Below are positions 20,433 to 20,617 of a stretch of 39,034 nucleotides of DNA, piece by piece. A program made the translations under genes and the position numbers. Each line of letters begins with the position of its first letter. Position 1 is the stretch's first letter. The DNA lies in UHGV virus genome UHGV-0388326. The stretch is one strand, 5' to 3'. The stretch is from a virus. The notes under the pieces are model-generated. The model had not been told where the DNA came from, ran no database searches, and was given only the letters and a program-made list of their open reading frames with translations.

Positions 20433-20457
20433 AGGCCGCTTTCGCGGCCTTGTTTTT
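20433..20457 (+). terminator. Rho-independent terminator after lipoprotein gene
   Basis: AGGCCGC-TTTC-GCGGCCT followed by TGTTTTT. Confidence 0.7.
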
Positions 20458-20617
20458 AACGAATGCCACCGCCGCCCGGGCGGGAATCCGCAGAACGCCC
20501 ACCGCAGCGGGAGCCGTCAGCGGCAGTATCGCTGTCGTGCTGACAACGACCGGCAAAGGCCTGAGTTGAAGCTACCAGAGACAACAAAACGAACAGTGCA
20601 GCAAATGCTTTTTTCAT
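20456..20617 (-). CDS. small secreted protein (53 aa precursor, about 31 aa mature, two Cys)
   Basis: Minus-strand ATG at 20617; MKKAFAALFVLLSLVASTQAFA signal peptide then GRCQHDSDTAADGSRCGGRSADSRPGGGGIR; below ORF-track size as annotated, embedded in a 77-aa track ORF. Confidence 0.4.
   Translation of the reverse strand: MKKAFAALFVLLSLVASTQAFAGRCQHDSDTAADGSRCGGRSADSRPGGGGIR

What the first reader, a model, noticed from the sequence alone, without database searches (positions are those of the whole stretch)
20456..20617. Unannotated small secreted peptide gene convergent with lipoprotein gene
Manual translation of the minus strand gives a 53-aa precursor with a canonical signal peptide (MKKAFAALFVLLSLVASTQAFA) and a 31-aa Gly/Arg/Asp-rich mature peptide with two Cys. 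The mature-peptide coding part is strikingly GC-rich inside an AT-rich cluster. It is hidden inside a longer track ORF that starts upstream at an unlikely Met. Small exported peptides on prophages can act in envelope stress, exclusion or as toxins.
Basis: seen in the sequence. Interest (0 to 1): 0.55.

Follow-up and report, generated by a model that had tools for sequence, protein, structure and literature searches.

The report
Prophage cassette encoding tiny secreted peptide
This is a real, self-contained prophage gene for a 53-residue precursor that is probably exported and trimmed to a 31-residue disulfide-looped peptide; public records already annotate it, nobody has studied it, and it belongs to a large family with no known function.

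Summary
The ORF at 20456-20617 (-) is as described: a 22-residue signal peptide and a 31-residue Gly/Arg/Asp-rich peptide with two Cys, about 70% GC in a roughly 39% GC neighbourhood. It is a real gene. Across six loci from five genera all 25 third codon positions of the core vary, but only 8 of 50 first and second positions do.

It is not unannotated. RefSeq lists it as WP_000708858.1, phage TL-2011b as gp43 "putative transmembrane anchored protein", and PHROGs as family 14503.

It sits in a 293-bp cassette bounded by two terminator hairpins. The cassette has a conserved -10 element (TAnnnT) and a 5' stem-loop. It occurs in about 8% of complete E. coli genomes with shuffled neighbours, and phiV10 has lost it by deletion. 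This is a classic moron.

The mature core (G-x-C-x12-C-G-x-R-[AS]-A-x-x-R-P-G-G) is a mini-domain with no Pfam, NCBIfam or PDB match. It is found in at least 3,800 protein clusters, mainly Proteobacteria and Cyanobacteria. It occurs alone, at protein ends, or beside peptidoglycan-binding domains, and in some taxa it lies among housekeeping genes.

Function is untested. My best guess is a periplasmic factor that binds an envelope ligand, possibly for superinfection exclusion. Interest is moderate.

The parts
20456..20617 (-). CDS of the 53-aa precursor, stop codon included
   Evidence: Identical to RefSeq WP_000708858.1. PHROG 14503 at E=2e-40. Purifying selection.
20552..20617 (-). Signal peptide, 22 aa: MKK n-region, 13-residue hydrophobic core, AFA cleavage motif
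   Evidence: The sequence varies between homologs while the signal-peptide features are kept in 67 of them.
20459..20551 (-). Predicted mature peptide, 31 aa (GRCQHD...GGGGIR), 3.06 kDa, net charge about +1
20471..20545 (-). Conserved Cys-loop core, C25 to G49: C-x12-C-G-x-R-[AS]-A-x-x-R-P-G-G
   Evidence: Nearly invariant in close homologs. Position frequencies over 145 domain copies in 138 distant representatives.
20661..20669 (-). Putative extended -10 promoter element, TGcTACACT
   Evidence: T, A and T at hexamer positions 1, 2 and 6 are the only invariant leader columns in 13 homologous leaders. The generic consensus scan did not call a promoter here.
20638..20653 (-). 5'-leader stem-loop GCCAC-N6-GTGGC, starting about 7 nt after the -10 element
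   Evidence: A hairpin is present at the same position in 12 of 13 homolog leaders, with different stem sequences. Each folds better than its shuffles, combined p about 2e-10, though the sequences are not independent.
20694..20712 (-). Intrinsic terminator of the upstream 125-aa gene; 5' edge of the cassette
   Evidence: Matches in E. coli genomes end here.
20433..20450 (.). GC-rich hairpin between the two convergent stop codons. It has a T-run only on the + strand. It marks the 3' end of the small gene and terminates the lipoprotein gene.
   Evidence: Kept in phiV10, which lacks the gene.
20420..20712 (-). The whole mobile cassette, from hairpin to terminator
   Evidence: Near-full copies in 422 of 5,426 complete E. 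coli genomes. The identical peptide has 9 upstream and 12 downstream flank types in 66 viral contigs.

Best explanation
The region is a small, self-contained accessory cassette (a 'moron') in a phiV10/epsilon15-like (Uetakevirus) prophage. It appears to have its own extended -10 promoter. The mRNA begins with a short protective stem-loop and ends at the hairpin shared with the convergent lipoprotein gene. The product is a 53-aa precursor. The inferred pathway is export by Sec, cleavage after AFA22 by signal peptidase I, and release of a soluble 31-aa periplasmic peptide whose two Cys (C25, C38) form a disulfide that closes a 12-residue loop. That loop plus the Arg-rich tail (G-x-R-[AS]-A-x-x-R-P-G-G) is a widespread extracytoplasmic mini-domain with no Pfam or NCBIfam model. 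Shown here: the gene, the selection on it, the signal-peptide features, the cassette behaviour, and the domain family. Inferred: the peptide acts alone in the periplasm of the lysogen by binding a conserved, probably anionic, envelope ligand such as peptidoglycan, an undecaprenyl or LPS phosphate group, or a metal ion. For the phage the most likely benefit is protection of the lysogen's envelope. My guess is interference with incoming phages, given that the gene lies in the slot between ejection-protein genes and the antirepressor/tailspike region. I put about 0.85 on 'real, exported, cleaved, accessory mini-protein', and only about 0.2 on the superinfection-exclusion or ligand-binding mechanism.
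For: Coding: all 25 third positions vary against 8 of 50 first and second positions, with pS 0.41-0.85 and pN at most 0.16. Among IMG/VR contigs, 28 different nucleotide versions encode the identical peptide; that set was selected for identity. Start codon: MKK is the only shared start. Export: signal-peptide features are kept in 67 homologs while the signal-peptide sequence drifts and the mature part stays nearly invariant. Disulfide: in the wider family Cys come in pairs. Of 26 C-x-C variants, 24 carry an extra downstream Cys, against 2 of 119 two-Cys variants. Own transcription unit: there is a terminator upstream and a hairpin downstream, invariant TAnnnT in the leader, and a 5' stem-loop kept through changed stems. 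Accessory and mobile: the 293-bp cassette is in 422 of 5,426 E. coli genomes beside different neighbours (YafO toxin, DUF2335, DUF4760, 125-aa ORF). There are 41 flank combinations among 66 viral contigs. It occurs in several phage backbones. phiV10 keeps only the last 23 nt of the gene (stop codon included) and is a viable phage. Slot: it lies after the ejection or virion-protein genes and before the tailspike in E. coli, Klebsiella, Cronobacter and a Pseudomonas alloputida prophage. Extracytoplasmic domain: 379 representatives at 50% identity and at least 3,823 clusters at 90% carry it. It always follows a signal peptide, lipobox or TM segment, sometimes beside SH3_3 or PG_binding_1 domains.
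Against: There is no direct evidence of transcription, translation, export or cleavage. The consensus promoter scan found nothing on this strand and the Shine-Dalgarno sequence in this window is weak (GGA). In the one transcriptome paper on a phage that carries the gene (phiv142-3, Orf11), it is not among the serum-induced genes and was not studied. The structure model is only moderately confident (core pLDDT 74-79) and matches nothing solved. There is no conserved partner gene and no PADLOC hit. Homologs that sit among housekeeping genes in Rodentibacter, Actinobacillus and Acinetobacter and in a metagenome-assembled genome show that the domain has a general cellular role. That weakens a phage-specific reading such as exclusion. 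Peptidoglycan-binding partner domains occur in only 5 of 92 larger relatives.
Confidence: 0.8

Rival explanations
1. It is what the database name says: a membrane-anchored protein. The N-terminal hydrophobic segment is not cleaved, and it tethers the 31-residue domain to the periplasmic face of the inner membrane.
For: NCBI, UniRef and TL-2011b call the family 'transmembrane anchored protein'. In some larger relatives the domain sits next to a true TM segment, for example P0074, P0094 and P0097.
Against: The hydrophobic core is only 13 residues. Small residues at -3 and -1 followed by Gly at +1 are kept in about 97% of 67 homologs, which is the signature of signal peptidase I cleavage. The name carries no experimental basis that I could find.
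Confidence: 0.1
2. It is a secreted toxin or bacteriocin-like peptide used against competitors.
For: It is small, Gly-rich, contains Cys and is carried on a mobile element. It lies near toxin-antitoxin genes in some phages (YafO; RelB/YafQ).
Against: It has a Sec-type leader, not a double-glycine leader. No immunity or export gene travels with it. Homologs are single genes among housekeeping genes in several taxa. The same domain is built into larger envelope proteins.
Confidence: 0.05
3. The true product is the 77-aa ORF from GTG 20689, as PHROG 3117 and many automatic calls have it, and it is not a secreted peptide.
For: The ORF is open. Gene callers often choose long versions (P0001, P0004, P0007; phrog_3117).
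Against: The extension is absent, much shorter or unrelated in other genera. It would begin just downstream of the upstream gene's terminator (20694-20712), and the leader's conserved -10 element and stem-loop lie inside it. PGAP calls the 53-aa form.
Confidence: 0.03
4. It is a chance ORF or a decaying remnant with no product.
For: The ORF is short, the Shine-Dalgarno sequence here is weak, and there are no expression data.
Against: Third-position-only variation across genera. Thousands of relatives share the same architecture. The ORF is intact in hundreds of genomes.
Confidence: 0.02

Closest known systems
PHROG 14503 / NCBI 'transmembrane anchored protein' (WP_000708858.1; TL-2011b gp43; phiv142-3 Orf11)
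   Same: It is the same protein. It matches over the full length at E=2e-40 and is 100% identical to the RefSeq entry.
   Different: Nothing differs in sequence. These database entries carry no function, and the name probably mistakes a cleavable signal peptide for an anchor.
Phage morons as defined for lambdoid phages (Juhala, Hendrix and colleagues; for example lambda bor and lom) - from my own knowledge
   Same: It is an extra gene with its own promoter and terminator, inserted between blocks that are adjacent in a relative (phiV10). Its composition differs from the flanks, and it is dispensable for phage growth.
   Different: Expression from the repressed prophage has not been shown. The GC difference is explained by amino-acid content. 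The product is far smaller than Bor or Lom and is not a lipoprotein.
T4 Spackle (small periplasmic superinfection-exclusion protein that inhibits the incoming tail lysozyme) and P22 SieA (exclusion gene between the ejection genes and immI) - from my own knowledge
   Same: The working model is shared: a small phage-encoded protein sent to the envelope of an already infected cell. As I recall the P22 map, sieA occupies the equivalent map position, between the ejection-protein genes and the antirepressor and tailspike region.
   Different: There is no sequence or fold relationship. This peptide is a third the size of Spackle. Exclusion has not been tested. Chromosomal homologs argue for a more general role.
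Excalibur extracellular Ca-binding domain (PF05901)
   Same: It is a short extracytoplasmic Cys-bracketed loop with Asp residues and a D-G-x-x-C motif. One relative (P0177) carries an Excalibur-like stretch as well.
   Different: There is no Pfam hit at E up to 1 or in ten larger relatives. The Asp spacing differs from DxDxDG. The invariant residues here are Arg17, Arg22 and Gly.
5'-terminal stem-loops that stabilise E. coli mRNAs (ompA leader; Emory, Bouvet and Belasco 1992) - from my own knowledge
   Same: A 5-6 bp hairpin is predicted at or within a few nucleotides of the transcript's 5' end, and it is kept through compensatory stem changes.
   Different: The transcription start is inferred, not mapped, and no stability data exist.

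Membership tests
PHROG 14503 / 'transmembrane anchored protein' small-protein family | Full-length profile match | tested here: met
   E=2.3e-40 over residues 1-53 of 53. 57 close homologs at E down to 2e-26.
PHROG 14503 / 'transmembrane anchored protein' small-protein family | Architecture: signal peptide followed by one G-x-C-x12-C-G-x-R-[AS]-A-x-x-R-P-G-G unit | tested here: met
Sec signal peptide cleaved by signal peptidase I | Positive n-region, 7-15 residue hydrophobic core, small residues at -3 and -1 | tested here: met
   MKK / AFAALFVLLSLVA / A-F-A|G. The features are kept in 65-66 of 67 homologs. These are hand-computed measures, not a trained predictor.
Sec signal peptide cleaved by signal peptidase I | Experimental export and cleavage | not testable with these tools
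   This needs PhoA or beta-lactamase fusions and N-terminal mass spectrometry. The expected mature monoisotopic mass is 3056.34 Da when oxidised.
Bacterial lipoprotein (signal peptidase II) | Lipobox [LVI][ASTVI][GAS]C at the cleavage site | tested here: not met
   The residues before Cys25 are A-G-R (A-G-N in most homologs), so position -1 is Arg or Asn. The neighbouring 137-aa ORF, by contrast, does have ISA|C.
Phage moron | Bounded by transcription signals of its own | tested here: met
   Terminator at 20694-20712 upstream and hairpin at 20433-20450 downstream. Conserved TAnnnT in the leader.
Phage moron | Absent from otherwise collinear relatives; neighbours vary | tested here: met
   phiV10 and the O157 typing phages lack it. 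There are 41 flank combinations.
Phage moron | Transcribed from the repressed prophage | not testable with these tools
   No transcriptome was available. The phiv142-3 paper lists only serum-induced genes, and Orf11 is not among them.
Excalibur domain (PF05901) or any other Pfam/NCBIfam domain | Profile match above threshold | tested here: not met
   0 Pfam families at E up to 1. NCBIfam gave only noise, 12-13 bits against cut-offs of 65-87. Nothing covers the domain in ten larger relatives.
Class II microcin or bacteriocin | Double-glycine leader with a linked ABC exporter and immunity gene | tested here: not met
   The leader is Sec-type. No conserved neighbour exists.
Known anti-phage defence systems (PADLOC) | Profile match | tested here: not met
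   0 families for the peptide.
Any solved fold | Sequence or structure match to the PDB | tested here: not met

The most novel reading that the evidence does not exclude
The 25-residue Cys-loop unit is an autonomous extracytoplasmic ligand-binding mini-domain that has not been described, and it would be among the smallest in bacteria. It is conserved from Cyanobacteria to Enterobacterales. It recognises a universal anionic envelope component such as peptidoglycan stem peptide, undecaprenyl-pyrophosphate or lipid II, or LPS phosphates. Temperate podophages would then have captured the bare domain as a one-module periplasmic effector that alters the lysogen's envelope, for example to block the trans-periplasmic channel or the cell-wall hydrolase of superinfecting phages.
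Probability: 0.2. Interest if true: 0.65.

Novelty: new member of a known kind. Interest (0 to 1): 0.4.

Why it matters
About one complete E. coli genome in twelve carries this cassette. That includes pathogens: ETEC H10407, the APEC phage phiv142-3 and the EHEC O103:H25 phage TL-2011b. The peptide is almost unchanged across enterobacterial genera while its DNA has diverged to near saturation at silent sites, so it must do something precise. Its core is a very widespread envelope module with no curated profile, no structure and no literature. A 3-kDa peptide that can be synthesised chemically is an unusually tractable way to find out what this module binds. The answer would annotate thousands of 'hypothetical' proteins. 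It might also reveal a new kind of prophage-conferred envelope trait.

Tried and rejected
- Pfam, NCBIfam and PADLOC scans of the peptide and of larger relatives found nothing covering the domain.
- PDB profile searches with a narrow and a broad alignment gave 0 hits.
- Literature searches for the family name, the accession numbers and motif strings found nothing relevant. One broad search was uninformative.
- The phiv142-3 paper deals with the neighbouring orf10, not with this gene.
- All-against-all BLAST of ORFs in 87 loci found no conserved partner. Only ABC ATPases, Omp25-like porins, SRAP peptidases and recombinases recurred, in a few loci each.
- Whole-mRNA folding is not unusual, z = -0.8.
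- No Rfam family lies in the cassette.
- The generic sigma-70 scan found no promoter on this strand. The promoter proposal therefore rests on comparative evidence only.
- I considered a His/Cys metal site. It is unlikely, because His at Cys+2 occurs in only 29 of 119 two-Cys domains.

Full report
**The observation**

The 77-aa ORF from GTG 20689 that contains it also exists.

- The part coding for the last 31 residues is 69.9% GC. The signal-peptide part is 43.9%, the flanking genes about 39%, and the window 48.5%.
- Only 0.04% of 93-nt windows reach this value.
- The excess sits at codon positions 1 and 2 (74% and 77%), so it follows from the Gly/Arg/Ala/Pro/Asp-rich sequence rather than from a foreign origin.
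- The gene is convergent with a 137-aa ORF (20004-20417, +) that has a lipoprotein lipobox. A GC-rich hairpin at 20433-20450 lies between the two stop codons.

**It is a real gene, and it starts at ATG 20617**

I collected DNA of homologs from Pectobacterium, Klebsiella, Cronobacter and Dickeya, and from a second, divergent E. coli prophage.

- In the 25-codon core every third position varies among the six sequences, but only 5 first and 3 second positions do.
- Pairwise pS is 0.41-0.85 and pN is 0-0.16. Silent sites are close to saturation while the peptide is almost unchanged.
- The upstream extension of the 77-aa ORF is missing, very short or unrelated in other genera, and MKK is the only shared start.

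**It is already annotated**

- The window is a phiV10/epsilon15-like (Uetakevirus) genome.
- RefSeq calls the same 162-nt CDS in E. coli VE-T9 and ETEC H10407 (WP_000708858.1, 'hypothetical protein'). The translation is identical to the window's.
- Phage TL-2011b lists it as gp43, 'putative transmembrane anchored protein'. Phage phiv142-3 lists it as Orf11.
- It is PHROG 14503 ('membrane associated protein', moron category, E=2e-40). The long call is PHROG 3117.
- 'Unannotated' is therefore wrong for the public record. I found no paper that mentions the protein, its accessions or its motif.
- The one functional study of a phage carrying it (PMC7724020) deals with the neighbouring orf10, and its table of serum-induced genes does not list orf11.

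**Export**

No trained signal-peptide predictor was available, so I measured the features directly in 67 homologs.

| Feature | Result in 67 homologs |
|---|---|
| Leader length | 19-27 residues |
| Net charge of first six residues | +1 or +2 in 65 |
| Hydrophobic 10-residue stretch | strong in all |
| Position -3 | A, S or V in 66 |
| Position -1 | A or S in 65 |
| Position +1 | Gly in 66 |

The leader sequence drifts freely while the mature part is nearly invariant, which is what is expected of a cleaved signal peptide. The hydrophobic core here is 13 residues, too short for a stable membrane anchor. There is no lipobox before Cys25. I therefore think the database name 'transmembrane anchored' misreads a signal peptide. 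Cleavage itself has not been shown.

**A self-contained mobile cassette**

- An intrinsic terminator of the upstream 125-aa gene lies at 20694-20712. The hairpin at 20433-20450 closes the other end.
- Matches in complete E. coli genomes span just this 293-bp stretch. 538 of 5,426 genomes have a match and 422 have a near-full copy. The 5' neighbour is a YafO toxin gene, a DUF2335 gene, a DUF4760 gene or the 125-aa ORF.
- IMG/VR holds 329 viral contigs with a relative. Among 66 with full flanks and an identical peptide there are 28 nucleotide versions, 9 upstream and 12 downstream flank types, and 41 combinations.
- The gene also occurs in unrelated phage backbones: TL-2011b next to arc/ant, an E. 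coli prophage next to RelB/YafQ and the lysis genes, and Pectobacterium and Dickeya phages next to tail and MuF_C genes.
- phiV10 lacks it but keeps its last 23 nt (the codons for the C-terminal GGGGIR, plus the stop), fused directly to the stop codon of the antirepressor gene and followed by the same hairpin. phiV10 is thus a deletion derivative, and the gene is dispensable for phage growth.

**Promoter and leader**

The consensus scan found no sigma-70 promoter on this strand. An alignment of 13 homologous leaders tells a different story. The only invariant columns before the start codon are T, A and T at positions 1, 2 and 6 of a hexamer, here TACACT at 20661-20666 preceded by TG. That is the pattern of a -10 element.

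Six to ten nucleotides downstream, 12 of the 13 leaders fold into a 5-6 bp hairpin, and the stems differ: GCCAC/GTGGC, GCCGTC/GATGGC, CACCAC/GGTGG, CGCCGC/GGCGG and CTGC/GCAG. Each folds better than its shuffles. The combined p is about 2e-10, with the caveat that the sequences are related. I read this as an extended -10 promoter with a 5'-terminal stabilising stem-loop at 20638-20653. The transcription start near 20654 is inferred, not mapped.

**The mature peptide is one copy of a widespread mini-domain that is not in the curated profile libraries**

- A profile of the family found 379 representatives at 50% identity in 1.84 billion proteins. A broader profile found at least 3,823 clusters at 90% identity.
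- Over 145 copies the signature is G-[NP]-C-x2-[PS]-x-[DQN]-x-A-x-[DN]-G-S-R-C-G-x-R-[AS]-A-x-x-R-P-G-G. Both Cys, Gly11 and Arg17 are invariant.
- Among the 150 best representatives the domain stands alone behind a signal peptide in 34. It is C-terminal in 47, N-terminal with an extension in 33, internal in 18 and repeated in 4. The rest had no clear motif match.
- It always lies after a signal peptide, lipobox or TM segment.
- Pfam and NCBIfam do not cover it. Among 92 larger relatives the only recurrent partners are bacterial SH3 (3) and PG_binding_1 (2).
- Cysteines come in pairs. Of 26 C-x-C variants, 24 carry a further Cys just after the PGG, against 2 of 119 two-Cys forms. This points to disulfides rather than a metal site. 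His27 is present in only 29 of 119.
- AlphaFold2 with 67 sequences gives a compact loop with core pLDDT 74-79. Nothing in the PDB resembles it by sequence or fold.

**Distribution**

Species genomes with a relative include the following:
- Enterobacterales
- Pasteurellales
- Acinetobacter
- Tolumonas
- Paraburkholderia
- many Hyphomicrobiales
- Azospirillum
- a Rickettsiales metagenome-assembled genome
- a Polyangiaceae metagenome-assembled genome
- several Cyanobacteria

In Enterobacterales and in Pseudomonas alloputida the gene rides on prophages. In Klebsiella, Cronobacter and Pseudomonas it lies in the same slot as here, after the large virion or ejection-protein genes and before the tailspike. 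In other taxa it lies among housekeeping genes:
- Rodentibacter: between an M20 peptidase gene and htpG
- Actinobacillus: between tmcA and phoH
- Acinetobacter: between plsB and recG
- an alphaproteobacterial metagenome-assembled genome: between bacA/uppP and ffh

No partner gene is conserved. The phages therefore seem to have picked up a general cellular envelope module.

**Mechanism**

Shown: a selected, autonomous, mobile small gene with a signal-peptide-like leader and a conserved Cys-loop domain.

Inferred: Sec export, cleavage after Ala22 and a C25-C38 disulfide, giving a soluble 3.06-kDa periplasmic peptide. The invariant Arg residues and the company the domain keeps (peptidoglycan-binding modules, envelope proteins) suggest that it binds a conserved, probably anionic, envelope component.

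From my own recollection of the P22 map, the equivalent map position holds sieA and the immI genes. Here the adjacent antirepressor gene is preceded by isrK and C4 antisense RNA matches. I therefore favour a role in protecting the lysogen's envelope, perhaps against superinfection. This is a guess at about 0.2. The chromosomal homologs and the absence of any defence-system match count against a purely anti-phage role.

**Verdict**

The claim that it is unannotated is not correct, and the functional ideas remain untested. As a kind of thing, a prophage moron encoding a small exported protein, it is familiar. What is new is that its product is the bare form of a very widespread envelope mini-domain with no curated profile, structure or literature, and that it has a neatly conserved promoter-and-leader architecture. 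Interest is moderate at 0.4.

Noticed in passing
window 670-681, 2935-2946, 20421-20432 (exact); 5941-5952 (1 mismatch): The perfect 12-bp palindrome GTGACATGTCAC occurs three times exactly and once with one mismatch, against 0.07 expected. The three exact copies sit at gene ends or beside terminator hairpins. The copy at 20421 is conserved in phiV10 and Cronobacter and, with mismatches, in Klebsiella relatives. It may be an operator for a phage regulator or a module-boundary sequence.
   Followed up: partly
window 22254-22337 (-) and 22362-22438 (-), upstream of the Bro-N ORF at 21495-22220 (-): There are Rfam matches to C4 antisense RNA (66 bits) and isrK (63.5 bits) directly upstream of the Bro-N/antirepressor gene. 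This suggests a P1/P7-type immI antisense control of the antirepressor in a Uetakevirus.
   Followed up: no
window 20479-21494, compared with L003 (phiV10) 3040-3060: Relative to this window, phiV10 has a clean deletion of about 1 kb. It removes the 72-aa ORF, the 125-aa ORF and most of the small gene, and joins the antirepressor stop codon to the last 23 nt of the small gene. phiV10p22 (29 aa) looks like the separated C-terminus of the antirepressor.
   Followed up: partly
window 20628-20637 (-); homolog leaders in L005, L006, L018, L019, L020, L022, L024, L026: Between the 5' stem-loop and the Shine-Dalgarno sequence, most enterobacterial homologs share a (T/A)CTACACA(T/C) box. In this window it has diverged to TTATAGATGG. 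It could be a binding site for a small RNA or a protein.
   Followed up: no
window 20004-20417 (+): A 137-aa predicted outer-membrane lipoprotein (lipobox ISA|C, Ser at +2; PHROG 8691, function unknown) follows the last large virion-protein gene directly. The syntenic Klebsiella phage has a different 134-aa ORF here, plus a Rap1a (T6SS amidase immunity) homolog. This slot seems to collect periplasmic and envelope cargo.
   Followed up: no
L004 (phiv142-3) 2943-3101, next to the small gene at 2537-2698: A published study reports that orf10 of phiv142-3, the 52-aa neighbour of this gene in that phage, is induced 2^4.12-fold in chicken serum and raises serum resistance and colonisation of an APEC strain (PMC7724020). 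The window carries a different neighbour, the 125-aa ORF of PHROG 14518.
   Followed up: partly
L042, L043, L050, L053, L054, L068 (Mesorhizobium), matches near 5001-5150: In Mesorhizobium the domain forms the C-terminus of lipoproteins of about 117 aa, followed by a nuclease-like ORF. An Omp25/31-like porin gene lies within 1-2 kb in three of these loci (L042, L050, L068) and in L028, L033 and L038, six loci in all.
   Followed up: no
window 3491-3564 (-): There is a tRNA gene inside the phage genome (Rfam, 73 bits).
   Followed up: no
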